Origin: an uncultured Bacteriovoracaceae bacterium
GTDB lineage: Bacteria > Bdellovibrionota > UBA1018
Length of the DNA: 38,475 bases
NCBI GenBank assembly: GCA_964395265.1
Contig: CAYNDM010000002.1
Location: forward strand, 1-38,475
Reading direction: 5' to 3'
A model generated the notes under the pieces. That model was not told the origin of the DNA. It searched no databases and worked only from the letters and a program-made list of their open reading frames with translations. How positions within the stretch are numbered: position 1 is the stretch's first letter; every line of letters starts with the position of its first letter. Made by a program: the position numbers and the translations under genes. Positions 22,685 through 38,003 of the stretch are shown one piece after another.

Positions 22685-22811
22685 TCCGATAATGTTAACC
22701 TGGGACTGTTGATACGCAATATTAAATGTTTTTTATGAAAATATGATATCGCAGTGATGTCAAGGTGTGCCCCGGCCCGTGAGACGCGATACCCAGAGTG
22801 TCCTAGTCACC

Positions 22812-25800: not shown

Positions 25801-25837
25801 CCTTCAATTCGATCAGGATTTTCGAAAAGGTCGCCAT
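22812..25837 (-). CDS. ABC exporter with two N-terminal cNMP-binding-like domains and a Cys-less C39-like domain; reading frame broken once in the NBD (frameshift near 23190)
   Basis: Track ORFs 23063..25837 and 22812..23234 are one gene. The first carries a CNB-like PBC (GRPHARSAFAE), a C39-like region lacking the catalytic Cys (ESDLMSYVASVVNV.. but KHRLVIL, VHDPARG), six-TM ABC_membrane and Walker A GASGCGKTT. The second continues with FEFISELPRGYEYTLAENGTGLSGGERQR, ILILDEATSALD and IIAHRL. The junction reads ..IDEAAKQANA/FEFISEL.. if one base is added at GCTTCG (plus-strand AA at 23191-23192). Confidence 0.8.
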
Positions 25838-25843
25838 GATCGG

Positions 25844-26467
25844 TCACTCGCCCGAATTCACGCCAAAGCCCAAAAAGCGCTCCGAGACCAAAGAGATGAT
25901 TCGTTGGCTCTCTGTGATGATGGATGCCTTCACGCTCATGCCCGAGCGCAAGGGATAGTCGCGGACGTAGACTTGCAAGGCAGGGTTCTCGATTCTGGCG
26001 AATACGACGTGGCAGTGAGGTTTTTTCGAGTCGCAGTCATCGGAGACGACCGGTTGCGATTCGATCACGGCGGTCAGGGTTCCGAAACTTTCTTCTGGAT
26101 AGGGATCGACGCGAATCACTGCTTTCGATCCTTGCTTCACTCGAAGGATGCCATGAGGAGGAACCTCGAGCTTGGCGAATACGCCGGAAGCGGACGGGGC
26201 GGCTTTGGTAGCTCCGGTCCGCGAAGAAAGCTTCACATCTGGGGCGGGGGATTCGTGAGGGAGGAAAAGAGTGCCGCGCGCGTCGAGGGTGACCGTTGTT
26301 CGCGCGAAGATCGAGAACGCCAGGAGGCCTCCCAGGCACGCGGTGAGGGAGTAGAGCATGAGCCTGACCGAGAATGAAGGAGGAGTCCTGATGAAGTCAG
26401 CTGTTGTCCAGGCGACTTCCGTAGCGTGATACTCCAGGCTCGCGCGTCTTCCTAAGTCCTCATCCAT
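25844..26467 (-). CDS. Short HlyD-family membrane-fusion-like protein (no coiled-coil hairpin)
   Basis: N-terminal TM (LMLYSLTACLGGLLAFSIF). Beta-rich segments typical of MFP barrel domains follow (GILRVKQGSKAVIRVDPYPEESFGTLTAVIES; LRSGMSVKASIITESQRIISLV). It ends 6 nt before the ABC gene start, suggesting an operon. Confidence 0.6.
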   Translation of the reverse strand: MDEDLGRRASLEYHATEVAWTTADFIRTPPSFSVRLMLYSLTACLGGLLAFSIFARTTVTLDARGTLFLPHESPAPDVKLSSRTGATKAAPSASGVFAKLEVPPHGILRVKQGSKAVIRVDPYPEESFGTLTAVIESQPVVSDDCDSKKPHCHVVFARIENPALQVYVRDYPLRSGMSVKASIITESQRIISLVSERFLGFGVNSGE

Positions 26468-26627: not shown

Positions 26628-29624
26628 ATGGATAAGATCACGGCAATCGAAAGCGCGCGGCTACGATCGGTCCTGACTGGACTTCCCGCCCAATGGGTAG
26701 AGGCCGTATTGGCGGATGCGGAGCTCGTCAATTTGCCCAAGGGGCAAGCGCTTTTTGCCCCCGGCGCCGAGCGCGTTCCCTGGATCGTGGCCGAAGGTCA
26801 GTTGTCTCGGGGATCCGAATCCGCGATATCAGGCGATCTGGTCGATCCGCGGGAGGACGCTTCGGATGAACGCGAGGCTATAGACTGGTCCGCTGAGGAA
26901 GTCAGTGGAGTCCTGCTTCTTCAGCCCTCCGCCTACGACCGGCTATTGGGCGAGGATCCCTCCGCACGCGAATACTTTCGTAGGTCCAGGCTTGAGTCCC
27001 TGCGCGGGCTCAAGATCGATCTGGTTCTGTCGGGGTTGCCGCAATCGCTGCTTTCTCCCACGCTGAACGCGTTGGTCGAGATGACATTCGAGGAATTCCA
27101 GAACGTTTGGGGGGATTCCACAGGGCTCCTGGTAGTCCAAGAAGGTGGGATCGAGGCGACTTCCCATAGGGGAGGAGACACGCTAGGAGTGGTCTGGCGT
27201 GGCGATTATTTTTTCTGTCGACGCACGCGCGCGTCGATTCAATGGATCGCGCGGCCAGAGACTCGGGTTTGGTGGCTCGGCTCCGGGCATTGGGCGCGGG
27301 CTTGTCGGACCAACCACGTCCACGGGATTTTTCCGGTACTCGATCCGTTGAAGAAAAAGATCGAGGCGGGACTGCACAAGCTCAAGGCGGTCTCGCCGAG
27401 GCACGCGAGCGAGGTCTCCGAGGACGATGGGGACGACGAGGATTTAGACCGCTTTTTTGCCAACGGAGAGGACTATGGTTGGAAGCCGCCAAGGCGATCC
27501 GCGGTCGTCATCCAGAACGACGAGATGGATTGCGCGGCGGCATGTCTTGCCTCGATCTGCGCTTACCATGGCAGAAGGATCGGCATCCAGAAGCTTCGCG
27601 AGCTCCTGCGGGTGAGCCGGGACGGAACGTCTCTTGAGTCACTCCTTGAGGGCGCGCTCACCGTGGGATTCGATGCCGTGCCGCTTGAGCTGGACGCATC
27701 GGACTTGGGGAATCTGAAACTGCCGTGCATCGCCCTCGTGGGTTATCACTACATGGTACTCTACGACTTCGGGCAAAGGGGCGCGCTCGTGATGGATCCC
27801 TCCGTGGGGATTCTGCGAAAGTCCTCCGAAGAGTTTCTGCGGGATTGGTCCGGTTACGCCCTGGCTCTCAGACCGACTGAGTCGCTTTTCCGTTATCCGG
27901 AGTCCGGTACGGATTATGCGAAGTATCTCGCGCTTCTGAAACACCACTGGGGCAGCGTAGGCGAGCTCTTTCTCGCATCTTCCCTGGGTCTGGCCTTGAG
28001 CCTGGCAGTGCCATTGGGGATGCGAACTCTGCTCGATGATATCGTGCCGAAAGGGAACCCGCCTGAGCTTCGCGTGGCGGTGCTCGTGGTTCTTGGAATC
28101 GTCGCGGTTTCGGGCGTGTTCGGGCTGATTCACCAGTACCTGATGGATCATCTGCGAGCGAGGCTGGAGACGAAGTTCTCCGCACTGTTCATCACGCATG
28201 TTTTCAAGTTGCCTCTCAGCTTCTTCTCTCTTCGGAAGGTCGGTGACATCACCTCCCGGATGGTCGATCTGATCTGGATCCGAGACGCCTTTACCGGCCA
28301 CGCCAACGAGATCATCCTCGGTGGGATGGCCATGCTGGCCTACCTCGTTCTGCTCGCTGCCTTTAGCTGGCAGGTCGCTTTGATGGCCTGCCTGATCCTG
28401 GGCGGCCTGGCCTTGTTCATCGTGTGGATTTTCAGAAAGCTCTCCGTCGTTCGAAAAGAGCTGATGAGCGCGACCGCCCTTACCAAGAGCATCTTATTCG
28501 AGCAGTTTCGCTCCCTCGAGACTCTGAAATCCTTGAATGCGCAGGTGCAGGCGCGGTGGCGATGGGAGTTTGCCCGTCTCAGGATGCTGCAGGCCGAACG
28601 CAAGTCCCGATTCCTGCTTTGCGGGGTCTTGGGTGCGTCGGAGCTGGCGCGGAACGCGTTGATCATCGGCGCTCTCTCGTTGGGCGCGGTGCTCCTGCTC
28701 GATGGAAAGCTTTCGCCGGGTCAGCTCGTGGCCATCAACGCGATCATAGTCGGGCTCACCACGCCGTTGCTGATGGTCATCGATCGACTCGGAGATTGGA
28801 ACCAGGTCGTCGTCTCCTTCGGGAGGGTCGACGACGTGTTCGTCGCTTTGCCGGAGCAGCGATGCGCCAAGGAGCGACCCGTCGAATTCGCTTTCGCCAA
28901 CGAGATCCGCTTCGAGGACGTTTACCACTCTTACGGGGATCCTTCGGAGGATGTCCTGAATGGAGTCAGTTTCTCGGTCAGGGCCGGGGACACGGTGGCC
29001 TTCGTGGGATCGAGCGGCTCGGGGAAGAGCACGCTAGCTTACTTGATCAGCCGTCTCTACCGTCCCCGCGAGGGCAGGATCCTGATCGATGGGGTGGAGT
29101 CCGGGGATTTCGCGCTCGAGGAGCTCAGGCGGAACGTGGGCATGGTGATTCAGGAGAACAGCCTGTTTTCAGGCTCGATTCTCGAGAACATCGCCTCCGG
29201 ATCCCCTCACCCCGATCTGGAGCGCGCGATCCGCGCGGCGATCCTGGCGGACGCCCATGAGTTCATCTCGCGACTTCCACAGGGCTACCTGAGTCAGCTC
29301 GGCGAGGGAGGCATGGGCCTTTCGGGAGGCCAAAAGCAGAAGATCAATATTGCCCGCGCGCTGTACAATGACCCGCCGATCCTCATTCTTGACGAGGCTA
29401 CCTCCGCCTTGGACGCCATCTCGGAGGAGTCGATCATCCGGAACCTTCGCAATATCGGGCGCAAGCGAACACTGATATTCATCGCTCACCGCCTGAACAC
29501 CATCCGGCATGCCGATCGGATCCTAGTGCTCGAAAAAGGAAAGATCGTAGAATCGGGGAGCCATGACGAGCTTCTCGGCCGAGGCGGAGTATACTCCCAG
29601 CTCCTGCGCGATCAGCTATCCTGA
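26628..29624 (+). CDS. Peptidase-containing ABC transporter (PCAT): cNMP-binding-like domains + intact C39 peptidase + TMD + NBD
   Basis: C39 catalytic set: VIQNDEMDCAAACLASI (Gln/Cys), GYHYMVLYD (His), VMDPSVG (Asp). Six-TM ABC_membrane region is present. NBD: Walker A GSSGSGKST, signature LSGGQKQ, Walker B ILILDEATSALD, H-loop IAHRL. Confidence 0.85.
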   Translation: MDKITAIESARLRSVLTGLPAQWVEAVLADAELVNLPKGQALFAPGAERVPWIVAEGQLSRGSESAISGDLVDPREDASDEREAIDWSAEEVSGVLLLQPSAYDRLLGEDPSAREYFRRSRLESLRGLKIDLVLSGLPQSLLSPTLNALVEMTFEEFQNVWGDSTGLLVVQEGGIEATSHRGGDTLGVVWRGDYFFCRRTRASIQWIARPETRVWWLGSGHWARACRTNHVHGIFPVLDPLKKKIEAGLHKLKAVSPRHASEVSEDDGDDEDLDRFFANGEDYGWKPPRRSAVVIQNDEMDCAAACLASICAYHGRRIGIQKLRELLRVSRDGTSLESLLEGALTVGFDAVPLELDASDLGNLKLPCIALVGYHYMVLYDFGQRGALVMDPSVGILRKSSEEFLRDWSGYALALRPTESLFRYPESGTDYAKYLALLKHHWGSVGELFLASSLGLALSLAVPLGMRTLLDDIVPKGNPPELRVAVLVVLGIVAVSGVFGLIHQYLMDHLRARLETKFSALFITHVFKLPLSFFSLRKVGDITSRMVDLIWIRDAFTGHANEIILGGMAMLAYLVLLAAFSWQVALMACLILGGLALFIVWIFRKLSVVRKELMSATALTKSILFEQFRSLETLKSLNAQVQARWRWEFARLRMLQAERKSRFLLCGVLGASELARNALIIGALSLGAVLLLDGKLSPGQLVAINAIIVGLTTPLLMVIDRLGDWNQVVVSFGRVDDVFVALPEQRCAKERPVEFAFANEIRFEDVYHSYGDPSEDVLNGVSFSVRAGDTVAFVGSSGSGKSTLAYLISRLYRPREGRILIDGVESGDFALEELRRNVGMVIQENSLFSGSILENIASGSPHPDLERAIRAAILADAHEFISRLPQGYLSQLGEGGMGLSGGQKQKINIARALYNDPPILILDEATSALDAISEESIIRNLRNIGRKRTLIFIAHRLNTIRHADRILVLEKGKIVESGSHDELLGRGGVYSQLLRDQLS

Positions 29625-29632
29625 TGCTCGTC

Positions 29633-31222
29633 TCAACGGATGTATCGTCCGGGAGAAATGATGCCGTGCGGATCCACGGCCTGCTTTATGGAGCGGAGCA
29701 GTTCATTGTAGCTTCCACGTATCGGAGGCAGGGATCCCATCGAATTCACGCCGAGCCGGTAAGGAATGTAGCCGAGGCGAATTGACTTCTTGAAGAGGAA
29801 CTCGTAGCAGGCCATCGCCCTCTCATCCTCTCCGGGGTAATCGCGATCGAAGGGACAGCGGGTGACCGCTTTGAGAGTGGGGCCGACGGTGGAAAGTTGA
29901 AGCCCTACCCCGATTTCGAGCTGAAATCGATCCATCGCCTCTTCGAGCAAATCCGTGTACAGGCGAACGTCTCGACCAGTCATTGGGATAATGGGAACGA
30001 ACCAGAATAGGCCGCATCGATCTCCGTCCGGGTCGATTTTAGCCGGGATCGGCATCTTCTTGCGCCAATAGGCCTCGAACAGGGTGTTCTTGCTGGGATA
30101 TCCCACGCACGGATTTCTTCGGAGCGAATCCGCCATTTGAGCGATCTGTCCTGGGCTGAAAGGAGAGCGCTTGGACTGTCTGAGCCGCCTGATCGTGTCC
30201 TGACTGAGAAAAAAGAGGTCGCCTACGCATTTGGAGATCTCGCGCGCGACCAGTGAGCATTCGGCCTCGCCTATTTCCTTTGAGGGCGCCGCGATAGGCA
30301 CTTGGCCGTTCCAGAGGTTCACGCCATGGATTTGCCGCAACTTCTTTCTGAGCGAAGGTGAGAGGCGGCGTTTTCCATTCGCGCTTTCCCAGGGAAACTG
30401 CTGGTTGATCATGATGTGGAGCAAGTCGCTGAAAATCACGGTGCGGCTTCGAAGAGCGTCGCTGAGCCTCATTTGGCGGAATTTGTCCACGACCGCCTCC
30501 AGCTTTTTCGGCTGGTCGGTCCCGAAGGAAATGACTTCGAAATGCTTTGGCTTGGGGTAAAGGGCCAAGGTCATTCGTGTCGCTATTCCCAATCCGGATT
30601 GGATGAAAATCCCTTCGACCCTGGGACCGACGCCGCGATTGTAGAGGTTTGCCGATCGGCTGGATTCGAACCTCGACATCCCCGTATAGAGGAGTTCTCC
30701 GTTGGGCAACACGAGCTCGATCGCATGGACGCGGGGAAGTTGGTCGTCTCCGTTCTTCCCGTATCCGGCTCCGTCTTCCATGATATTGCCGATGAGGCTG
30801 CCTTCAGGGTTCGCGCTGATGTTGACCATGAAGGGAGACTTGCGCTTCAGCAGGTACTCGGACGCCATTTCGGCGGATACGCCTGGCTCGACCGTAATGT
30901 ACCCCATCTCCTCGTTGTATTCGACGATCCGATTGAGTCTCCCCAGGTACAAGAGGACACAGTGATCGGATGGGGGGACCATCGAGCCGTATCCCCAGTT
31001 TTTTCCCAGGCTGACCGGATAAAGCGGGACCTTGAATTTCGCCGCCGTGCGGACGCAGGCTTGGACTTCTCGCGTGGTGCGGGGCCTGAGGACGGCTCTG
31101 ATGCGCTGACGAGTAGGGAAGGTGCAGCTTGAGAACTTCCTGATGGAGTCAGGATCGGAAAGGACGTGCGAGGTACCGATCGCGCGCTTCCATTCTGCCA
31201 TTGCGCGAGCGAGATAGGGCAT
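29633..31222 (-). CDS. FAD-linked oxidase, VAO/PCMH (vanillyl-alcohol oxidase / p-cresol methylhydroxylase) type
   Basis: FAD_binding_4 pattern: ..AVLRPRTTREVQACVRTAAKFKVPLYPVSLGKNWGYGS...LGRLNRIVEYNEEMGYITVEPGVS... The C-terminal segment is VDPHGIISPGRY. The GxNxGYG motif resembles VAO/PCMH rather than the GlcD subgroup. Confidence 0.7.
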   Translation of the reverse strand: MPYLARAMAEWKRAIGTSHVLSDPDSIRKFSSCTFPTRQRIRAVLRPRTTREVQACVRTAAKFKVPLYPVSLGKNWGYGSMVPPSDHCVLLYLGRLNRIVEYNEEMGYITVEPGVSAEMASEYLLKRKSPFMVNISANPEGSLIGNIMEDGAGYGKNGDDQLPRVHAIELVLPNGELLYTGMSRFESSRSANLYNRGVGPRVEGIFIQSGLGIATRMTLALYPKPKHFEVISFGTDQPKKLEAVVDKFRQMRLSDALRSRTVIFSDLLHIMINQQFPWESANGKRRLSPSLRKKLRQIHGVNLWNGQVPIAAPSKEIGEAECSLVAREISKCVGDLFFLSQDTIRRLRQSKRSPFSPGQIAQMADSLRRNPCVGYPSKNTLFEAYWRKKMPIPAKIDPDGDRCGLFWFVPIIPMTGRDVRLYTDLLEEAMDRFQLEIGVGLQLSTVGPTLKAVTRCPFDRDYPGEDERAMACYEFLFKKSIRLGYIPYRLGVNSMGSLPPIRGSYNELLRSIKQAVDPHGIISPGRYIR

Positions 31223-31370
31223 AGGCTCATTCTCCGGAAGGATTTCGCAGATTTTCCACAGTATAGGAAATGCGACCGGCAGGGGCTAGGTGAAAATGAA
31301 TGGCGGATTCCGGAGAGAGACCGCACGTTGCGAACGGTGAGGGCGCCCCTTCGCATGCGCGTGGCGCATA

Positions 31371-31404
31371 AACAAAAAGGGATGGGCTGTGATCAGCCCA
31401 TCCC
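31371..31404 (-). terminator. Strong rho-independent terminator directly after the small peptide gene
   Basis: On the minus strand, GGGATGGGCTG-ATCA-CAGCCCATCCC (11-bp perfect stem, plus coordinates 31379-31404) is followed by TTTTTGTT (31371-31378). Confidence 0.85.
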
Positions 31405-31450
31405 AAACTCTAGACTTTATAGCCCCGAGTTGAAGTCAGCAAGCCCTCGC

Positions 31451-31543
31451 TTAGTACGGAGGCTTAAATACAGGCTTTGCACCACCTTTGATCTTTTTCA
31501 GACTCGATTTGCTGAGTTTCTTTTTGCTTGCTTGCTTCTTCAT
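31451..31543 (-). CDS. 30-aa double-glycine-leader precursor peptide: MKKQASKKKLSKSSLKKIKGG|AKPVFKPPY
   Basis: My own translation of the minus strand; the ORF is absent from the track because it is under 60 aa. AGGAG lies 5 nt upstream of the ATG at 31543, and the stop TAA is at 31451-31453. The leader matches LSxxELxxIxGG at L-12, S-11, L-7, I-4 and G-2/G-1. A terminator follows, and C39-ABC exporters are encoded nearby. Confidence 0.7.
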   Translation of the reverse strand: MKKQASKKKLSKSSLKKIKGGAKPVFKPPY

Positions 31544-31883
31544 ACGTTCTCCTAATCCCCGTAATCGGATCGGTGACCTCGCACGGTTTACGGGGAAGAT
31601 CCCGGGCGAAGTCTAGGCCCCCTCGCTGAATGATTCCGTCGGCTCTCGCCTCAGGTGCTATCAGATCAGTGACCCAATACTTGATAGATTAAGTCAGAAA
31701 TTAAGATGCGACAAGTGAATTTTTCCGAGCGAGCTCGAGCCTGAAATTCGTCTTCACGAAATCCGTGAAAATCGCCCGGAATTTAGGGTATTTTTTGACT
31801 GAAAAAGAGTGTGTCGCGATGTGCTCGTGACACAGGCAGATCGATTGCCTCGAACGCGGATCCCATGCTCGCTTTTGGCTTCA

Positions 31884-31912
31884 TTGCAGGCATCGGGTGT
31901 CTGACTTACAAT
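31884..31912 (+). promoter_or_regulatory. Candidate sigma-70-type promoter for the glycosyltransferase gene
   Basis: TTGCAG (31884-31889), a 17-nt spacer, then TACAAT (31907-31912), about 33 nt upstream of the ATG at 31945. AAGGAAGG serves as the SD. This is a pattern match only. Confidence 0.3.
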
Positions 31913-31944
31913 AGAGGCTCCACAAAACCTAAGGAAGGGTACTT

Positions 31945-32882
31945 ATGAAAAGAGGCAATAGGACGAACGCGACCACTTCGGCTGTGAGCGGGTCGCCGCT
32001 GGTCAGCATCATCATGCCTGCCTACAACGTGGAAAAGTACATCGGGGATTCGATTCGCTCCGCTCTCGCTCAGTCTCACAGAAACATCGAGCTTATCATC
32101 GTCGACGATGGCTCGCGCGATCGGACCGCGCGCGTCTGCCAGACGTGGTGTCGGCGCGACCGTCGAGTCCGGCTGATCCGAGCGAGGAATGGAGGGGTCG
32201 CCAGAGCCCGGAATATTGGGATCCGGAGCGCCAAGGGCGAGTGGATCGCGTTCATGGACTCGGATGATCTTTGGAAGGCAAGGAAGCTTGAGCGGCAGCT
32301 CCGAGCCGCGCGCGAAATGGGCGCGGATGTGGTCTATACGGGGGCATGGATGTTCTGGAACGATCGTCCGGAGCGCCCCGAAGTGCCTCTCGGTATCAGG
32401 GCCGGGCGTTTTACCTCCGAAGCGATGCTGAATGCCTGCTGGGAGGCAGTCACTTCCTCCCTTCGACGGTGCTCATGTCGAGAGAGATCATCCGCAGGAC
32501 GGGCCTCTTCAAGGAAAAGGGCTGGATCGCGAGAGAGGTGGAAGACTGGGAGTTCTTCATCCGAATGGCGGATCGGGGAGGCGGCGTATTTTTTGGGTTG
32601 GAAGATTGCCTGGTTCTATATCGGGTCAGGCCGGGATCGACCTCAAGCTCGCATGAGCCTCACCATTGGGGAATGCTGAAGCTGCTCGATATCTATCGGG
32701 AGCACCCTAAAGCCAAGAAAGTCGTGATCAAGGCGTCGTATATGCAGACATGTCGCAGGATCGTGGCATTTCAGTATGGGAATCGGGCCTTCAATCAGCT
32801 CGGAAAGATCTTCGAAGCCGTACGGAGCCACTATCCCGGCGAACAGAAGCGCTTCCTCGAGTTCATCAACCAGATCCTGTGA
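31945..32882 (+). CDS. Family-2 glycosyltransferase, reading frame broken once (near 32436)
   Basis: GT2 motifs VSIIMPAYNVEKYI, ELIIVDDGSRD and AFMDSDD are in ORF 31945..32679. The continuation LLGGSHFLPSTVLMSREIIRRTGLF...EDWEFFIRMA...LVLYRV is in ORF 32346..32882. Adding one C to the CC at 32435-32436 gives ..SEAMLNALLGGSHF... Confidence 0.75.
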
Positions 32883-32885
32883 GGC

Positions 32886-33962
32886 TCATTTCTTACCGAT
32901 GATGATGGCCCTGGCCTGTCTCTCGAAACGAAGGATACTGCGCCGCGAGAACCCGGCAGTTTTGAGCCAGGCGCTGTAAGTCGCGGCCGGATAGACCATG
33001 CCTTCGCCGGTGGCCAGGCAGTGGAAGTAAAGGGAGAGGGCGGCAGCGCCCATGTCTCCCGTCTCGTCGTCGTTGCTGACCGAGTTGAAGATCATCAGCG
33101 AGCCGCCGGGTTTGAGAGCGTCGAAGCTCTTTTTCATCAGCTTCAAGTTCGTCTTCGGCGAGTAGATGTTGAAGATATGGGAAAAGTAGATCCCATCCAT
33201 TCCTGAAGTAAACCGGTCCTTGACGAAGTTGCCGGGATGGATGCTGATTCGATCCGAGAGCCCGTGTTTGGCGATATTCTTCTTCGCCCGCCGGCAGATC
33301 GAGGGTAAATCGAAGATCGTGATTTTCAGGCGAGGGTAGCGCTGGCACATCCGGATGGCATGGGTGCCATCGGCGCCGCCTACGTCCATGAGGTGCCTCA
33401 TCTTGCCGATCGTGGGATCGAGGGCGGGAAGATACACATCCTCGAGCTCGTCGGTGATGTATTTGGCGATGCCCCTCATCCAGGCATGAAAGATGGTCTC
33501 ATTGTCGCGGTGGCCGCTGAGGCGTTCGTAAAGCGTGTTTCCCTTGCCAGGGAATTCCTTGAGTCCGGTGTTCGTGCCCTTCTTCAGGGATTCGAGCAGA
33601 TGGTTCATGGGCCGGTAGATCAACGAGTGATTGGCCTCGAGGATCGGACGGACGTTGTATGGACTTCCCTCTCCGAATAGTGCCGTGGCGACCGGGTGAT
33701 TGCTGTAGGTGCCGCGGGTCCGGTTCTTCTTGATGAGATTGAGCGAACAACAGGCCATGAGCAGGACGCGGGCGGAATTCTCGGGGATTCTCAATGCCGA
33801 ACGGATATCCGTCATGGTACGGCCCGGGCGGTTGGCGAGGTAGGTGAACAAACCCAGTCTGGTTGCGGCGTAGATTGCTTCCGAAAAGGCGAAACCGTAA
33901 ATCAGCAGATCCAGGTGATGCTCGGGATGGAATGTGTTCACCGTGCGTTGTCGTCTTGCCAT
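32886..33962 (-). CDS. Class I SAM-dependent O-methyltransferase (Methyltransf_2 / COMT-ASMT-like, with N-terminal dimerisation wHTH)
   Basis: SAM motif I is HLMDVGGADGTHAI, with acidic D at ITIFDLP. The N-terminal helix-rich domain is LIYGFAFSEAIYAATRLGLFTYLA. A strong SD (GAGAGGGGAAG) lies upstream of the ATG. Confidence 0.8.
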   Translation of the reverse strand: MARRQRTVNTFHPEHHLDLLIYGFAFSEAIYAATRLGLFTYLANRPGRTMTDIRSALRIPENSARVLLMACCSLNLIKKNRTRGTYSNHPVATALFGEGSPYNVRPILEANHSLIYRPMNHLLESLKKGTNTGLKEFPGKGNTLYERLSGHRDNETIFHAWMRGIAKYITDELEDVYLPALDPTIGKMRHLMDVGGADGTHAIRMCQRYPRLKITIFDLPSICRRAKKNIAKHGLSDRISIHPGNFVKDRFTSGMDGIYFSHIFNIYSPKTNLKLMKKSFDALKPGGSLMIFNSVSNDDETGDMGAAALSLYFHCLATGEGMVYPAATYSAWLKTAGFSRRSILRFERQARAIIIGKK

Positions 33963-34163
33963 CTTCCCCTCTCAGTCATTTTTTTGGTGGTGACTGTAGT
34001 ATGCGCAGACTCACGCGATTTCTTCAAGATTACGCGGCTTGCGTTCGCTTCTGTCAATTTCCTGACTTCAAGGGGGATCGTCCGGTTCACGGGTTTCTGT
34101 AGACATTGTCAAGAAATCTCCCGATGATTGAAAGAGATCCAAGACATCGCAAGGGAGATCCGA

Positions 34164-35363
34164 ATGACCAAGTCCGGAGTTGGTTATAGCGAGAAAGTGA
34201 ATTCGAACGAAGCAGGGACGGAGGCAGCCCAGCAGGCTCTAGCGTCCAGCAAGATATCGGGCAGGAAGGTCGCCTTGCTCTTCTCGACTGCCAAGCACAA
34301 CCCCAAGGAGCTTCTGTCGTCGGTGCTTTCGGTGCTCGGTGCGGATACCAAGATCTACGGCGGCTCCGTTTGCGGCATCATCAGCAAGGAAAAGGTCAGC
34401 TACAACGGCTTCGAGGTCGGTCTCGCCGTGTTCTCCGCCGACGAAGTCAAGATCGACGGTCACATCGTCAGAAACATCAAGGGCAGGGAGCTGGAGTCCG
34501 GCGTCGAGCTGGGGCAACAGCTTGCATCGCGGAAGTTCGCGGAGGACGATACGTTATTCGTCGGATTCGAGGCGATCCGAGGCGAGGGGCCAACCCAGCT
34601 GTTGAACTTCGGAACGCCGATCCTCGAAGGCATGTCGCAGTCGCTGAAGTCCTGGCCGAACACGATAGGCGCTGCATTTCAGGGCGATTTCAATTTTCAG
34701 TCGTCCTTCACGTTTTTCGACAGCGAGGTCGAGACGGCCGCCGCCATCGCGCTGATCATTTCGGGCAAGAAGAGCCGCTCCGTCCTGATGCATGGCTGCA
34801 CGCCCATGAGCGACTATTACAAGATCACCAAGTGCGCGGGCAACGTCGTGCTCGAGATCGACGGCAAACCGGCGCTCGAGCGGGTTTCGGAGATTCTCGG
34901 GCCCGGCTCGGACAAGACCTGGGAAGAGTACCCTCTCTATCTGAATTTCGGACGAAATCACGGCGACAAGTTCGACGATTTCATCGAGGAGCGCTACACG
35001 AACAATATGTGCGTGGCGATCGATCCCCCGAGCAAGGCATTGGTGCTTTTCGAGCCCAGCTTCAAGGAAGGCGACGAGTTCCAGCTCATGCGCCGCCATA
35101 AGGAGTTCAATACTATGGAGGAGCGCCTGGACGGATTTTTCAAGGAAGGGAAGGCGCCGTTTTTCAATCTTTACGTCGACTGCGTGGGCCGTTCAGGCAT
35201 GCTCATGGGAACCGAGACCGAAGACGCGACCGTCGTTCAGAAATTCGTGAAGGACGCCCCTGCGGCGTTCTTGGGCATTTACGGGGGCCGAGAGATCGCG
35301 AAGTTCGGCGCCCAGCCCGCAGTGGTCTGCCTCACCGGCGTGCTCACGTCGTTCGCGGACTGA
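34164..35363 (+). CDS. FIST-domain (FIST_N/FIST_C) sensory protein
   Basis: AGGGAG lies 6 nt upstream of the ATG at 34164 (the track starts at TTG 34128). The layout and motifs are typical of FIST proteins: ..AGTEAAQQAL...VALLFST...IYGGSVCGIIS...; later FFNLYVDCVGR and FLGIYGGREIA. Confidence 0.7.
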   Translation: MTKSGVGYSEKVNSNEAGTEAAQQALASSKISGRKVALLFSTAKHNPKELLSSVLSVLGADTKIYGGSVCGIISKEKVSYNGFEVGLAVFSADEVKIDGHIVRNIKGRELESGVELGQQLASRKFAEDDTLFVGFEAIRGEGPTQLLNFGTPILEGMSQSLKSWPNTIGAAFQGDFNFQSSFTFFDSEVETAAAIALIISGKKSRSVLMHGCTPMSDYYKITKCAGNVVLEIDGKPALERVSEILGPGSDKTWEEYPLYLNFGRNHGDKFDDFIEERYTNNMCVAIDPPSKALVLFEPSFKEGDEFQLMRRHKEFNTMEERLDGFFKEGKAPFFNLYVDCVGRSGMLMGTETEDATVVQKFVKDAPAAFLGIYGGREIAKFGAQPAVVCLTGVLTSFAD

Positions 35364-35376
35364 ATGGATCAGAGCG

Positions 35377-38003
35377 ATGTCTGAAGATCGGGACAGGATA
35401 GCCATCTCGAGAAAGAGGCCAGCTATTACAAGAAAAAGGTCAACGAACTTACCGGACATAACCTTTCGCTCGAGTACAAGATCGGCGCTCTCATCAACGA
35501 GCTCAAGCAGAAAAGGCTCGGGTTCGAGTTGCTCTCCCAGCTTCAACAATCGATCGGAACCTATCGCGAGGCGTCCGGCATCTTCGAGTTCGCACTCAAG
35601 GCGATGATTTCCTCGCTCAATATGGAGCGAGCCGTGGCGCTGGTCCCGGCGGCGCGGGAGAACGTCTACAGCATCTCGAAGATCCTGGGATACACTGCTG
35701 AGCTCGAGGAACGGCTCAAAGAGAAGAAGATCGAAGTCCCGAAAGAGCTTCAGGCAGAGGGAAGCTTCTTGGTCGTCAACAAAAGCAGCAGCAGCAACGA
35801 GTTGATCGAGAGCATACGCGAGGCGCTGGACCTGCCGTACTTCATTCTCGTTCCGGTGCTGGTGGAAAAGAAGCCCATCGGGATCATCATCACCGGCAGG
35901 ATGCAGGAGCAGAGGCCCGTCAAGCTTCCTCTCGACAAAGGGGATGCCGAGACCGTGCAGTCCATCGGCGGACTGATCGCCGCGTCGGTCCACAACCTTC
36001 GAGTTTACGCGCTTGAGGAGACCCAGAAACTCCAGACGGATTTTTTCGCCAATATCTCCCACGAGTTCAGGACGCCGATCACCCTGACTTTGGGCCCCCT
36101 CGAGGGGCTGCTTTCGGGTCGCTACGGGAACCTCCCCGAGGCGGCAAAAAACCAGGTTGAGGTGATGTTGCGAAATCAGCAGCGCCTTTTGAAATTGATC
36201 AACGAGATCTTGGACCTGACCAAAGTGGAAGCCGGGAAAATGCAGCTGCATGCGTCCAAGGTTCGCAGCTTCAACAGCTTCGTTCAGGACAGGGTCGAGC
36301 AGTTCAGGTCGCTGGCAGAAAAACGAGGGATCGAGCTTAGGTCCAAGCTCGATCCCGAGGTGGATAAGGCGGAGCTTTACCTCGACCTAGAGAAGATCGA
36401 CAAGGTCATCTTCAATCTCTTGTCGAACGCCCACAAATTCACCAAATCCGGCCATGTCGAAGCCAGAACGGCGATCCAGGATGGATCTTTTGTCTTCACC
36501 GTCTCTGACACCGGGATCGGCATCAAGGCGGATCAGCTCATCTATGTCTTCGATCGGTTCAAACAAGCCGATGGAAGCTCGTCGCGAGAGTACGCGGGAA
36601 CTGGAATCGGTCTCTCCCTGGTCAAGGAGCTGGTGCAGCTGCATTCCGGCCAGATCTCGGTTCATAGCGAGTACGGAAAAGGAACCACGTTCACGGTCAC
36701 GATCCCGGTGGGCAAGGCTCACTTGGATCCCGCTAGCCTTGCGGATGCCCCCGATGCCGAACCAATTCAACCCATGCCGGCGTCGGTAAACCGGGTCGTC
36801 GAGATTCGCGAGGGGGTGGCGGAGAAGGACGAGCTCGAGGAGATCGAAGCGCTCAATGCCAAGACTCGCGAAAATTGGGTGGAGGGTCGAGGGACGATTC
36901 TCTACACGGACGATAACCGCGACCTGCGCTGTTATGTCTACGAGATCCTCTCGGAGCATCATAATGTCTACCTGGCTCATCATGGCAAAGCCGGTCTCGA
37001 GCTGGCTCTGCAAGTGGACGTCGATCTGATTCTCTCGGATCTCATGATGCCTGTCATGACGGGCACCGAGTTTCTGCGAAGTGTTCGAATGGAGAACCGC
37101 CTGCAAGGTATCCCATTCGTCTTATTGACCGCGAAGTCGACCAGCGATTCGAAACTGGAAGGACTCGAGACCGGGGCGGACGATTACCTGAGCAAGCCTT
37201 TCTCCGAGAGCGAGCTCAAGGCGAGGATCAAGAATCTCATCAAGCTTCGTCAGCAGCATTTGCGGATCCGGCGCGAGCTCGAGGCGGCCAGGCAGATCCA
37301 GCAAGCATTGCTTCCGAAGCTCGACCTGAGGGGAAAAAATTACCTACTCGACGCGCTTTACGAGCCGTCCGAGGAGCTTTCCGGCGATTTCTACGACTAC
37401 CTTGAAAACGGGGATTGGGTCTATTTCTACCTGGCCGACGTCACCAGTCATGGGACGGCCGCGGCCCAGGTCACCTACCTGCTCAAGACAATGATGGGGC
37501 AGCTGATTACCGAGGGGGAGCCTCCGGCGCTTTCGAGGCTTCTCGCGGAGCTCGCGCGTCGGTACTGCGAGTACGGGCTGAACTACGGCATCGGGATCCA
37601 GGTGGCCCGTTTCAATAAAAAGCGTCAAATCATGGAGTGCGCGATGAGCAATGCCCCCAGGGCCATCGTGTTCAGGAACTGCAATCAGGAGATCCTGCGT
37701 CTTCGTCCGGGACCGATTATTGACAGCGCGACCGGCGGGCGCAAAATCAGGCCCGAGGATTTCGAGGTGTGCCAGCTCGCGCTGAAACCAGGTGATTCGG
37801 CTTATTTCTTCACCGACGGCTGTTACGAGCTGCCGACAGGCGACGATTCGGCCCCGTTGGGCTACAGAAGGTTCAGCAAGATCATATCCGACCTTAACCG
37901 CAGCCAATGGAAGGAAGACCTCCTGACTACGCTCAAGGGGTTTCGGTCCGCCGGCAGCAACGACGTGGACGATATGACCGTCCTGATGTTCCGCCTTCAA
38001 TAG
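35377..38003 (+). CDS. Hybrid signalling protein: coiled coil + GAF-like + HisKA/HATPase_c + REC + PP2C/SpoIIE phosphatase; 5' end apparently frameshifted (near 35403)
   Basis: H-box FFANISHEFRTPIT. HATPase boxes LLSNAHKFT, DTGIGI, GTGIGLSLVKEL. REC: ILYTDDN...LILSDLMMPVMTG...DDYLSKPF. PP2C/SpoIIE: LSGDFYDY, ADVTSHG, FFTDGCYE, DDMTVLMF. The intact ORF starts at TTG 35529. However, the same frame is protein-like (HLEKEASYYKKKVNELTGHNLSLEYKIGALINELKQKR) back to 35385 with no start codon. ATG 35377 (MSEDRDRIA) joins it if one C is added to the GCC at 35401-35403. Confidence 0.8.

What the first reader, a model, noticed from the sequence alone, without database searches (positions are those of the whole stretch)
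29633..33962. Tailoring set (VAO/PCMH flavoprotein, O-methyltransferase, GT2) matches a core whose only obvious reactive side chain is a C-terminal tyrosine
VAO/PCMH-family flavoenzymes oxidise para-alkylphenols at the benzylic carbon through a quinone-methide intermediate. A tyrosine side chain is a para-alkylphenol. The core AKPVFKPPY ends in Tyr. A plausible but purely inferred route is beta-hydroxylation or alpha,beta-dehydrogenation of Tyr, followed by O-methylation and/or glycosylation. GT2 enzymes are the family used for glycocin-type peptide glycosylation. Such chemistry on a RiPP would be new.
Basis: inference. Interest (0 to 1): 0.65.

Follow-up and report, generated by a model that had tools for sequence, protein, structure and literature searches.

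The report
Tyrosine-tail peptide with decarboxylase flavoenzyme
A small secreted-peptide gene whose product ends in tyrosine sits next to a flavoenzyme of the family that strips the carboxyl group from acylated tyrosine, so this looks like an undescribed way for bacteria to cap a ribosomal peptide; it is seen in only one genome and is untested.

Summary
The genes are real. The flavoprotein is at 29633-31222(-), the GT2 at 31945(+) and the Methyltransf_2 methyltransferase at 32886-33962(-). A 30-aa double-glycine-leader peptide (MKKQASKKKLSKSSLKKIKGG|AKPVFKPPY, 31451-31543(-)) lies among them, beside a C39-peptidase ABC exporter.

The flavoprotein belongs to the 4-phenol-oxidising VAO/PCMH group and keeps the Tyr/Tyr/Arg triad. 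More precisely, it is a long-branch member of the FeeG/CndG family (38% identical to CndG). These enzymes oxidatively decarboxylate N-acylated tyrosine to a 4-hydroxystyryl enamide. The likely chemistry is therefore C-terminal decarboxylation (-46 Da), not beta-hydroxylation.

Two comparisons support the peptide as substrate:
- Most of 80 related loci carry the substrate-making gene next door (FeeM-like in 47, NRPS in some). In five cyanobacterial loci that neighbour is a Nif11 precursor, and all 7 such precursors end in Trp.
- Three of the six closest methyltransferase homologues sit beside precursors ending in Tyr.

The methyltransferase's nearest characterised relative is SibL, a ring C-methyltransferase.

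The GT2 is a generic polysaccharide type, split by a frameshift, and poorly supported as a tailoring enzyme.

Caveats: the locus is a singleton, the flavoprotein is divergent, and two genes are frameshifted.

Verdict: interpretation partly supported; new variant of a known kind.

The parts
31451..31543 (-). Precursor peptide gene: 21-aa double-glycine leader plus 9-aa core AKPVFKPPY, stop codon included
   Evidence: Found by six-frame search. GGAG SD and sequence. Weak bacteriocin-leader matches. Hydrophobic residues at -4, -7, -12 read directly from the sequence.
31379..31404 (-). Intrinsic terminator or attenuator hairpin between the peptide gene and the flavoprotein gene
   Evidence: 11-bp perfect stem followed by a T-run, -23.1 kcal/mol, z = -4.7.
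29633..31222 (-). FAD flavoprotein, FeeG/CndG-type (VAO/PCMH 4-phenol group); proposed C-terminal tyrosine oxidative decarboxylase
   Evidence: It is 38% identical to CndG over 99% of its length. It keeps the triad Y78/Y488/R489 and the family motif YWRK...DPDxDRCG. It has no signal peptide.
32886..33962 (-). SAM methyltransferase (Methyltransf_2 plus dimerisation domain), SibL/FlxJ-like; proposed to methylate the tyrosine ring (C3) or the phenol
   Evidence: Homologue contexts with precursors ending in Tyr.
31945..32882 (+). GT2 glycosyltransferase, split by a frameshift near 32433-32445 (N-terminal half in frame 1, C-terminal half in ORF 32346-32882); membership of the system is doubtful
26628..29624 (+). 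Peptidase-containing ABC transporter (PCAT): C39 domain with catalytic Cys and His, plus a ~290-aa N-terminal extension; cleaves after GG and exports
   Evidence: TIGR03796, 458 bits; QNDEMDCAAACL...GYHYMVL.
25844..26467 (-). Short HlyD-like adaptor (207 aa)
   Evidence: (TIGR01843, C-terminal part only).
22700..25837 (-). Second ABC subunit with a cNMP-binding domain and a Cys-less C39-like domain; reading frame broken near 23195; the 3' end after repair is approximate
34128..38003 (+). FIST-domain protein (34128-35363) and hybrid histidine kinase / receiver / PP2C phosphatase (35529-38003); possible regulators, link unproven
   Evidence: A FIST homologue also lies near a FeeG-FeeM pair in L009.

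Best explanation
This is a small RiPP-type locus.

1. The 30-aa precursor is made in excess. A terminator after its gene probably attenuates read-through into the flavoprotein gene (inferred).
2. In the cytoplasm, the FeeG/CndG-type FAD enzyme binds the phenolate of the C-terminal Tyr through Y78/Y488/R489. It removes a hydride from the benzylic carbon to give a p-quinone methide, which loses the free C-terminal carboxylate as CO2. The peptide then ends in a 4-hydroxystyryl enamide (-46 Da). This step is inferred from family membership and context.
3. The SibL/FlxJ-like methyltransferase adds a methyl to the same aromatic ring. C3, ortho to the OH, is the more likely site, which would leave the phenol free. 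O-methylation is not excluded (inferred).
4. The C39-peptidase ABC transporter cleaves after Gly-Gly and exports AKPVFKPP-NH-CH=CH-aryl with the HlyD-like and second ABC components (family knowledge).
5. The GT2 may glycosylate the phenol, but this is the weakest part.

The function of the product (signal or antimicrobial) is unknown.
For: Family placement:
- The best homologues are 38-42% identical over the full length and include CndG, named 1'-carboxy-chondrochloren decarboxylase.
- The window protein scores 446 bits to its family but only 164-185 bits to PCMH, eugenol oxidase and VAO structures. CndG itself scores 231-234 bits to those structures. The window protein is therefore a family member, not an intermediate.
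- The phenolate triad and the family motif YWRK are kept.

Known chemistry:
- FeeG, CndG and HyeB oxidatively decarboxylate N-acyl-Tyr that has a free carboxylate (PMC11350588; PMC11959600).

Guilt by adjacency:
- Of 80 related genome loci, 47 carry a FeeM-like N-acyl amino acid synthase nearby. Others carry a terminal NRPS module.
- The 38-kb window has neither. The only nearby source of an N-acylated Tyr with a free carboxylate is the peptide. Its gene lies 229 bp upstream on the same strand, and the flavoprotein gene sits between it and the PCAT.

The family does have ribosomal partners:
- Five cyanobacterial loci (L011, L037, L045, L049, L065) pair a family member with Nif11-leader precursors and the same type of export cassette.
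- All 7 of those precursors end in Trp.
- In these enzymes triad position 78 is Leu, whereas Tyr-linked members and the window keep Tyr.

Methyltransferase:
- Of the six closest homologues (45-51% identity), three sit beside precursor-like genes ending in Tyr: L084 ...AELPY, L087 NHLP ...VAGG|AAGGPSIIRGYY, and L090 ...PDACY. One more sits in a FeeM cluster.

Export and start signals:
- The PCAT has an intact catalytic Cys and His.
- The peptide has a proper SD, a GG leader and a terminator.
Against: - No second locus of this exact kind was found. The best flavoprotein homologue in 5.8 billion proteins is only 42% identical. No GG-leader peptide ending in Tyr turned up beside the 80 related genes.
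- The window enzyme sits on a long isolated branch. It differs at 19 of 102 columns that are at least 90% conserved in the family, against 0-6 in six other members checked. The changes include R150D, C166H, W196R, W220A and R448P. It may have altered activity or none.
- The genes alternate in orientation, and a strong terminator separates the peptide gene from the flavoprotein gene.
- Two genes of the locus (GT2 and the second ABC) carry frameshifts, and the HlyD-like gene is short. The locus may be decaying, or the assembly may be imperfect.
- Across 80 wider methyltransferase-family loci there is no general excess of small ORFs ending in Tyr (14 of 998).
- The enzyme was not assayed.
Confidence: 0.5

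Rival explanations
1. Unrelated neighbours. The peptide is an ordinary unmodified double-glycine bacteriocin or pheromone exported by the PCAT. The flavoprotein and methyltransferase act on a small tyrosine-derived molecule, such as an N-acyl-tyrosine made by an enzyme encoded elsewhere. The GT2 serves envelope polysaccharide synthesis.
For: - Most family members are not RiPP-linked: FeeM in 47 of 80 loci, NRPS in several.
- Methyltransferase relatives also occur with NRPS, ketosynthase and FeeM genes.
- The genes alternate in strand, and there is a terminator after the peptide gene.
- The GT2 resembles TuaG, EpsE and EpsD.
Against: - There is no FeeM or NRPS anywhere in the 38-kb window, whereas the substrate-making gene is usually adjacent in related loci.
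- The flavoprotein gene is wedged between the precursor gene and its exporter.
- Two independent enzyme families that are each linked elsewhere to C-terminal aromatic residues of precursors flank a peptide that ends in Tyr. The chance that a given peptide ends in Tyr is about 1.4% by the window-independent count.
Confidence: 0.25
2. The flavoprotein beta-hydroxylates or dehydrogenates the Tyr while keeping the carboxylate. O-methylation and GT2 glycosylation then follow, as in a glycocin-like product.
For: - VAO and PCMH enzymes can hydrate the quinone methide to benzylic alcohols (family knowledge).
- The triad is present.
- The Pfam label for the methyltransferase is O-methyltransferase.
- A GT2 (MftF) does glycosylate a Tyr-derived RiPP, mycofactocin (PMC7491314).
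Against: - The closest characterised relatives are decarboxylases acting on exactly this kind of substrate, N-acyl-Tyr with a free carboxylate.
- The residue aligned with the active-site Asp of VAO (from memory; motif VPD) is Ala here (alignment, my reading).
- The methyltransferase's nearest solved relative is the C-methyltransferase SibL at 185 bits, against 102 bits for the next hit.
- The GT2 is frameshifted, and its top solved-structure matches are polysaccharide-type enzymes.
- O-methylation before oxidation would block a phenolate-dependent enzyme.
Confidence: 0.1
3. Decayed remnant. The locus once made a modified peptide but is now inactive in this genome.
For: - Frameshifts in the GT2 and the second ABC subunit, and a 207-aa HlyD-like gene.
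- The flavoprotein differs at 19 of 102 conserved columns.
Against: - The flavoprotein (529 codons), the methyltransferase, the PCAT (998 codons) and the peptide gene are all uninterrupted, with good start signals.
- Two indels in 38 kb could be assembly errors. Housekeeping genes in the window look intact.
Confidence: 0.15

Closest known systems
CndG (chondrochloren), FeeG (eDNA N-acyl-tyrosine enol esters) and HyeB (hyellamide): VAO/PCMH-type oxidative decarboxylases
   Same: - Same protein family: 38% identity to CndG over the full length.
- Same phenolate triad and same family motifs.
- Same kind of substrate, a tyrosine acylated on N with a free carboxylate.
- In hyellamide, a glycosyltransferase then decorates the phenol.
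   Different: - The acyl group here would be a ribosomal peptide with a double-glycine leader, not a fatty acid or a PKS-NRPS chain. There is no FeeM or NRPS in the window.
- The window enzyme is a long-branch outlier, differing at 19 of 102 conserved columns.
Cyanobacterial Nif11-leader / C-terminal-Trp loci found here (L011, L037, L045, L049, L065), two of which also carry a SrpI-like Trp halogenase
   Same: A FeeG/CndG-family flavoprotein sits next to a ribosomal precursor with a GG cleavage site and a C-terminal aromatic residue, together with a PCAT, a second large ABC subunit and a HlyD cassette.
   Different: - The precursors have long Nif11 leaders and end in Trp, not Tyr.
- The enzymes have Leu in place of triad Tyr78 and form their own clade.
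- The window enzyme is not in that clade, so its pairing with a peptide appears to have arisen separately.
- These loci are themselves uncharacterised as far as I could find.
Mycofactocin pathway (MftA, MftC, MftF, MftM)
   Same: It is a RiPP whose C-terminal Tyr is oxidatively decarboxylated. The product is later glycosylated by a GT2 (MftF) and methylated (PMC11350588; PMC7491314 and PMC9679996).
   Different: - The decarboxylase is a radical-SAM enzyme, not a flavoprotein.
- The product is a redox cofactor and is not exported by a PCAT.
- The window GT2 matches the MftF model only in the generic N-terminal half (54 bits against a cut-off of 280).
LanD/EpiD HFCD flavoproteins and the plant Fe/2OG decarboxylase ZjuDC
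   Same: Both carry out C-terminal oxidative decarboxylation of a ribosomal peptide to an enamide. ZjuDC makes the same 4-hydroxystyrylamine end group, with a loss of 46.01 Da (PMC12871766).
   Different: - The enzyme families are unrelated.
- HFCD enzymes act on C-terminal Cys.
- ZjuDC is a plant enzyme that acts on cyclised burpitides.
Double-glycine-leader bacteriocins and pheromones with PCAT export; NHLP/Nif11 export cassette (TIGR03796/TIGR03797/HlyD)
   Same: The leader has GG and hydrophobic residues at -4, -7 and -12. There is a C39 peptidase ABC transporter, a second ABC with a cNMP-binding domain, and a HlyD-like adaptor.
   Different: - The core is very short (9 aa) and has tailoring-type enzymes beside it.
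- The second ABC is frameshifted and the adaptor is truncated.
SibL / SfmM2 / FlxJ-type aromatic methyltransferases
   Same: - Methyltransf_2 fold with a dimerisation domain.
- SibL is by far the best solved match, at 185 bits.
- FlxJ family is the best NCBIfam hit.
- Some homologues are named L-tyrosine C(3)-methyltransferase by JGI.
   Different: - Those enzymes act on free amino acids or polyene precursors.
- The NCBIfam cut-off is not reached (109 bits against 560).
- Here and in L084, L087 and L090 the likely substrate is a peptide-bound C-terminal Tyr.

Membership tests
VAO/PCMH flavoproteins, 4-phenol-oxidising subgroup | FAD_binding_4 domain, with closest solved relatives being PCMH, eugenol oxidase or VAO rather than D-lactate/glycolate or alkyl-DHAP enzymes | tested here: met
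   PF01565, E 3e-21. PCMH-like, eugenol oxidase and VAO at E 1e-53 to 1e-34; D-lactate, glycolate and 2-HG dehydrogenases at 2e-15 or weaker.
VAO/PCMH flavoproteins, 4-phenol-oxidising subgroup | Tyr/Tyr/Arg phenolate-binding triad (VAO Y108/Y503/R504; PCMH Y95/Y473/R474; numbering from memory) | tested here: met
   Y78 lies in GKNWGYGS and Y488-R489 in IPYRLG. These align with the FAYGG and EYR/SYR motifs of solved homologues. The alignment offsets place Y78 at VAO 108, PCMH 95 and EUGO 91. The positions are invariant or nearly so in the family.
VAO/PCMH flavoproteins, 4-phenol-oxidising subgroup | Covalent flavin attachment residue (His or Tyr in VAO, EUGO and PCMH) | tested here: inconclusive
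   Leu405 aligns with a His of 8s7t (GHVGFSP against GLFWFVP). The whole FeeG/CndG family lacks His here. Covalent attachment is not required for membership.
FeeG/CndG/HyeB N-acyl-tyrosine oxidative decarboxylases | Full-length homology to a characterised member, plus family-specific motifs | tested here: met
   CndG (P0029): 38% identity, 99% coverage, 418 bits. The motifs YWRK, DPDxDRCG..W and PYR are all present. The score to the family (446 bits) is well above the score to PCMH (164-185 bits).
FeeG/CndG/HyeB N-acyl-tyrosine oxidative decarboxylases | Conservation of the family's near-invariant positions | tested here: inconclusive
   83 of 102 columns conserved at 90% or more are kept. 19 differ, including R150D, C166H and R448P, against 0-6 in six other members checked. 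The protein is on a long isolated branch.
FeeG/CndG/HyeB N-acyl-tyrosine oxidative decarboxylases | A neighbouring gene that supplies N-acyl-tyrosine (FeeM-type synthase or terminal NRPS module) | tested here: not met
   The window has no FeeM-like or NRPS hit (E > 0.02), whereas 47 of 80 related loci have FeeM-like genes. A ribosomal peptide ending in Tyr takes that place.
FeeG/CndG/HyeB N-acyl-tyrosine oxidative decarboxylases | Decarboxylase activity giving a 4-hydroxystyryl enamide | not testable with these tools
   Needs an enzyme assay with mass spectrometry and NMR.
RiPP / double-glycine-leader peptide system with PCAT | Short precursor with a GG cleavage motif and hydrophobic residues at -4, -7 and -12; adjacent C39-peptidase ABC transporter with catalytic Cys and His | tested here: met
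   for the peptide. for the PCAT (TIGR03796 458 bits; QNDEMDC...GYHY).
RiPP / double-glycine-leader peptide system with PCAT | Precursor and tailoring enzymes conserved together in other genomes | tested here: not met
   No equivalent locus was found among 80 flavoprotein loci or 80 methyltransferase loci. Only analogous pairings were found.
Glycocin-type peptide glycosyltransferases (SunS-like GT2) | Specific similarity to peptide S/O-glycosyltransferases beyond the generic GT-A core, and an intact gene | tested here: not met
   The top solved-structure matches (E 1e-8 or better) are polysaccharide-type or unnamed GT2s, and none of the 31 matches at E <= 0.01 is named as a glycocin glycosyltransferase. 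That SunS has a solved structure is from memory. The best NCBIfam matches are TuaG, EpsE and EpsD. The homologues are generic. The gene is frameshifted.
SibL/SfmM2/FlxJ-type aromatic ring methyltransferases | Methyltransf_2 plus dimerisation domain, with closest similarity to ring C-methyltransferases | tested here: inconclusive
   SibL scores 185 bits against 102 bits for the next solved hit. FlxJ family scores 109 bits, below the cut-off of 560. The site of methylation cannot be read from sequence.

The most novel reading that the evidence does not exclude
VAO/PCMH-type (FeeG/CndG family) flavoenzymes are an unrecognised class of RiPP tailoring enzymes. They would convert a C-terminal aromatic residue of a leader-bearing ribosomal peptide into an enamide. 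The residue is Tyr in this locus and Trp in a clade of cyanobacterial Nif11 peptides. A SibL-like methyltransferase subfamily would similarly be dedicated to C-terminal Tyr of precursors. The short capped, proline-rich cationic peptide made here could be a secreted signal, given the FIST and histidine-kinase genes next door.
Probability: 0.4. Interest if true: 0.8.

Novelty: new variant of a known kind. Interest (0 to 1): 0.65.

Why it matters
C-terminal oxidative decarboxylation of ribosomal peptides is known from four or five unrelated enzyme types: HFCD flavoproteins, radical-SAM MftC, a P450, an MNIO enzyme and a plant Fe/2OG enzyme. A 2024 review places VAO/PCMH decarboxylases only in fatty-acyl and PKS/NRPS pathways.

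If this enzyme, and the cyanobacterial Trp-linked clade found along the way, act on ribosomal precursors, three things follow:
- A new, simple, O2- and FAD-dependent tool for capping genetically encoded peptides with styryl or indolyl-vinyl enamides. Such end groups occur in cyclopeptide alkaloids and in sponge peptides such as gombamide A.
- A handle for genome mining.
- A possible bacterial origin for such end groups.

Tried and rejected
- I searched the 80 flavoprotein-family genome loci for ATG-started ORFs of 20-100 aa with a G[GAS] motif that end in Tyr, within 5 kb of the gene. Only chance-like hits turned up.
- I clustered all small ORFs in the methyltransferase loci. The result was swamped by alternative-frame ORFs inside conserved genes. 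Restricting to intergenic small ORFs showed no general excess of Tyr ends (14 of 998). The Tyr link therefore holds only for the closest homologues.
- An exact-sequence look-up of the flavoprotein found no contig on record. An exact-sequence cluster look-up of six other window proteins found only singleton clusters with no names. The source organism stays unknown.
- Rfam and tRNA scans of the window found nothing.
- The promoter scan near the peptide was uninformative.
- The CndG paper (PMC2857064) and the original SrpI paper (PMC8780398) are not held. I could not check whether srp-type clusters were ever reported with this flavoprotein. The srp cores are described as LCCCW with YcaO, unlike the cyanobacterial loci here.
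- I considered a DprE1-like or polyprenyl-sugar pathway (FAD_binding_4 plus GT2). I rejected it because the flavoprotein is clearly of the 4-phenol group.
- I did not run structure prediction. Sequence matches to solved VAO/PCMH structures already settle the fold, and a model would not tell activity.

Full report
**1. What is there**

The interval holds three enzyme genes:
- A 529-aa FAD_binding_4 flavoprotein at 29633-31222(-).
- A GT2 glycosyltransferase starting at 31945(+).
- A 358-aa Methyltransf_2 / dimerisation-domain methyltransferase at 32886-33962(-).

It looks like a real gene:
- GGAG lies 6 nt before the ATG.
- Leu, Leu and Ile occupy positions -12, -7 and -4 before Gly-Gly, as in double-glycine leaders.
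- It gives weak hits to bacteriocin-leader models.
- An 11-bp perfect hairpin with a T-run follows the stop: -23.1 kcal/mol, z = -4.7.

On the other side of the flavoprotein, 8 bp from its stop codon, a 998-aa ABC transporter ends. Its C39 peptidase domain keeps the catalytic Cys and His. Upstream of that transporter lie a short HlyD-like gene and a second ABC subunit with a cNMP-binding domain and a Cys-less C39-like domain. This is the three-part NHLP/Nif11-type export cassette (TIGR03796/03797). Downstream of the methyltransferase are a FIST protein and a hybrid kinase / receiver / PP2C protein.

**2. Which kind of VAO enzyme**

Against solved structures, the protein matches PCMH-like oxidoreductases, p-cresol methylhydroxylase, eugenol oxidase and vanillyl-alcohol oxidase at E 1e-53 to 1e-34. 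D-lactate, glycolate and 2-hydroxyglutarate dehydrogenases score 2e-15 or weaker.

The phenolate triad is present. Y78 lies in GKNWGYGS, and the alignment offsets put it at VAO 108, PCMH 95 and EUGO 91. Y488-R489 lies in IPYRLG.

The protein search is more informative. The best 120 hits are all about 37-42% identical over the full length. Among them is Chondromyces crocatus CndG, named 1'-carboxy-chondrochloren decarboxylase (38% identity, 99% coverage, 418 bits). CndG, FeeG and HyeB are the VAO/PCMH enzymes that oxidatively decarboxylate an N-acylated tyrosine to a 4-hydroxystyryl enamide through a quinone methide (PMC11350588; PMC11959600).

The window protein shares the motifs that are invariant in this family: YWRK, DPDxDRCG..W and PYR. 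It scores 446 bits to the family but only 164-185 bits to PCMH-type structures. CndG scores 231-234 bits to those same structures. It is thus a member of the FeeG/CndG family, not something halfway to PCMH.

It is, however, an outlier. It sits on a long isolated branch in a neighbour-joining tree. It departs from the consensus at 19 of 102 columns that are at least 90% conserved, including R150D, C166H, W196R, W220A and R448P. Six other members checked depart at 0-6.

**3. What partners this family elsewhere**

A scan of one genome per species returned 80 loci at 33-40% identity. Their neighbours fall into a few classes:
- FeeM-like N-acyl amino acid synthases in 47 of 80 loci. In Acidobacteria these often come with PEP-CTERM proteins, an exosortase, an acyl carrier protein, GT1 glycosyltransferases and desaturases.
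- Terminal NRPS modules in Nostoc, Polyangium, a Chloroflexia MAG, Streptomyces and a metagenome contig.
- Unexpectedly, in five cyanobacterial loci (Coleofasciculus L011, Dulcicalothrix L037, Goleter L045, Moorena L049, Rivularia L065), Nif11-leader precursor peptides with the usual ...EAVAGG cleavage site. These come with a PCAT, a second large ABC subunit and HlyD, and in two loci a tryptophan halogenase.

All seven precursors in those five loci end in tryptophan. Their flavoproteins form one clade and carry Leu in place of triad Tyr78. CndG, the NRPS- and GNAT-linked members and the window protein keep Tyr.

Three conclusions follow. The gene that makes the substrate is normally next door. 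The family has ribosomal partners. And the active site tracks the C-terminal residue.

The window contains no FeeM-like or NRPS gene anywhere in its 38 kb. The only nearby source of a tyrosine that is acylated on nitrogen and free at the carboxylate is the peptide, whose gene lies 229 bp upstream on the same strand.

**4. The methyltransferase**

Its closest relatives are 45-51% identical. I looked at six of their contexts:
- L090/L091 (51% identity): a 68-aa Cys-rich peptide ending ...PDACY.
- L084: an operon that opens with a 40-aa peptide ending ...AELPY. It continues with a cyclase-like protein, two B12-radical-SAM enzymes and an ICMT-type methyltransferase before the homologue, followed by an exporter.
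- L087: an NHLP precursor ...EKVAGG|AAGGPSIIRGYY, an HpaB-type phenol hydroxylase and a HlyD protein.
- L085: two FeeM genes, a fatty-acyl-AMP ligase and an ACP.
- L088: a sugar nucleotidyltransferase and a GT2.
- L086: an amidohydrolase and a cupin.

Including the window, four of seven contexts in this clade hold a precursor-like gene ending in Tyr. Among intergenic small ORFs, Tyr is the last residue in about 1.4% (14 of 998). The link does not extend to the wider family at 30-44% identity. That wider family also occurs with NRPS and ketosynthase genes and, in 4 of 80 loci, with more distant VAO-like flavoproteins.

The best solved relative by a wide margin is SibL (185 bits; the next hit is 102 bits). 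SibL is a ring C-methyltransferase (family knowledge). The best NCBIfam model is the FlxJ family, and JGI names two homologues L-tyrosine C(3)-methyltransferase. Ring C3-methylation therefore seems more likely than O-methylation. It would also leave the phenol free for the flavoprotein. This step is inference.

**5. The GT2**

Only its N-terminal nucleotide-binding half finds homologues. The second half of the annotated ORF is Arg/Ser-rich nonsense. Homologues continue in another frame, in ORF 32346-32882.

A repaired 312-aa sequence aligns along most of the TuaG, EpsE and EpsD models. Its top solved-structure matches are all polysaccharide-type or unnamed GT2s. None of the 31 matches at E <= 0.01 is named as a glycocin-type peptide glycosyltransferase.

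The gene is therefore a generic GT2 with a broken frame. Precedents for sugar on a decarboxylated-tyrosine phenol exist: HyeH in hyellamide, MftF in mycofactocin and GT1 genes in 20 acidobacterial loci. Nothing ties this particular GT2 to the peptide.

The second ABC subunit is also frameshifted, near 23195, and the HlyD-like gene is only 207 aa long. Either the assembly has indel errors or the locus is partly decayed. Housekeeping genes in the window look intact.

**6. Most likely mechanism**

- The precursor is translated. The hairpin probably limits read-through into the flavoprotein gene (inferred).
- The cytoplasmic flavoprotein, which has no signal peptide, oxidises the C-terminal Tyr to a quinone methide. 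This loses CO2 and gives a C-terminal 4-hydroxystyryl enamide, -46 Da (inferred from family and context).
- The methyltransferase adds +14 Da on the ring or the phenol (inferred).
- The PCAT cuts after GG and exports the 9-residue product (family knowledge).

I put about 0.5 on this as a whole, about 0.6 on the flavoprotein-peptide link alone, and 0.15-0.2 on any role for the GT2.

Rivals:
- Unrelated neighbours (0.25).
- A decayed remnant (0.15).

**7. Comparison and novelty**

The enzyme is a member of the FeeG/CndG family by sequence and motifs. It fails one contextual feature of that family, the adjacent FeeM or NRPS gene, and is unusually divergent.

The system works like other C-terminal RiPP decarboxylations: EpiD-type HFCD enzymes, MftC, BotCYP, ApyH and the plant Fe/2OG enzyme that makes the same hydroxystyrylamine. 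It would use an enzyme family that a 2024 review assigns only to fatty-acyl and PKS/NRPS pathways. My literature searches found no report of a VAO-type enzyme acting on a ribosomal precursor.

I rate it a new variant of a known kind. Interest is 0.65.

Noticed in passing
L037:9989-12142, L011:1156-3217, L065:2656-7676, L045:5523-11491, L049:9367-13188: Five cyanobacterial loci pair a FeeG/CndG-family flavoprotein (Leu in place of triad Tyr78) with Nif11-leader precursors. All 7 precursors end in Trp. The loci also carry a PCAT, a second ABC subunit and HlyD. Two of them (L045, L049) also carry a Trp halogenase. L037 and L065 also carry a GNAT and a DUF7005 gene. This looks like an undescribed RiPP family that modifies a C-terminal Trp.
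   Followed up: partly
window 32433-32445 (GT2, 31945-32882): The GT2 gene is split by a frameshift. The annotated 244-aa ORF ends in Arg/Ser-rich out-of-frame sequence. The true C-terminal half (…STVLMSREII…EDWEFFIRM…) is in ORF 32346-32882.
   Followed up: yes
window about 23195 (ABC subunit, 22700-25837, minus strand): The second ABC transporter gene is frameshifted just before the signature motif. The rest of the ATPase domain (EFISELPRGY…LSGGERQR…ILILDEATSALD) reads in another frame. Its C39-like domain lacks the catalytic Cys.
   Followed up: yes
window 25844-26467 (minus strand): The HlyD-like adaptor is only 207 aa. It has a transmembrane segment and a C-terminal barrel part but no helical hairpin. 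Cyanobacterial counterparts are about 540 aa.
   Followed up: partly
L084:1111-9222, L087:2589-6069, L090:911-2370: The closest homologues of the methyltransferase sit beside precursor-like genes that end in Tyr: a 40-aa peptide …AELPY with two B12-radical-SAM enzymes and an ICMT-type methyltransferase; an NHLP precursor …GG|AAGGPSIIRGYY with an HpaB phenol hydroxylase; and a 68-aa Cys-rich peptide …PDACY. These are probably uncharacterised RiPP clusters that modify a C-terminal Tyr.
   Followed up: partly
window 34128-35363 and L009:6140-12621: A FIST-domain protein (33% identical between the two) lies near the flavoprotein in the window. In a deltaproteobacterial MAG, the equivalent flavoprotein is followed by a FeeM-cNMP-binding fusion and is surrounded by histidine kinases and a GGDEF protein. 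This hints that the tyrosine-derived enamides are tied to signalling.
   Followed up: no
L006-L078 (Bryobacterales/Acidobacteria loci), L173: In Acidobacteria, the FeeG-like gene is flanked by about 260-aa PEP-CTERM proteins (39 loci), GT1 UDP-glycosyltransferases (20 loci), fatty-acid desaturases (11 loci), FeeM-like synthases, an ACP and an exosortase. This points to widespread glycosylated N-acyl-tyrosine enamide lipids linked to the exosortase system.
   Followed up: partly
L151:1-2697, L147:3521-6253, L101:6776-13014, L125:6932-12329: Four of 80 methyltransferase-family metagenome loci carry a more distant VAO-like flavoprotein (28-33% identical to the window's) within 4 kb. Two of these loci also have ketosynthase genes and one has an ICMT-type methyltransferase gene. 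This pairing of the two enzyme families recurs outside RiPP contexts.
   Followed up: partly
L092:8623-8721 (minus strand, cut by the contig end): About 600 bp from a 45%-identical methyltransferase homologue, a proline-rich ORF ends …KPPEPPKPPVKY. This is faintly reminiscent of the window core AKPVFKPPY. The ORF is incomplete, so it is not interpretable.
   Followed up: no
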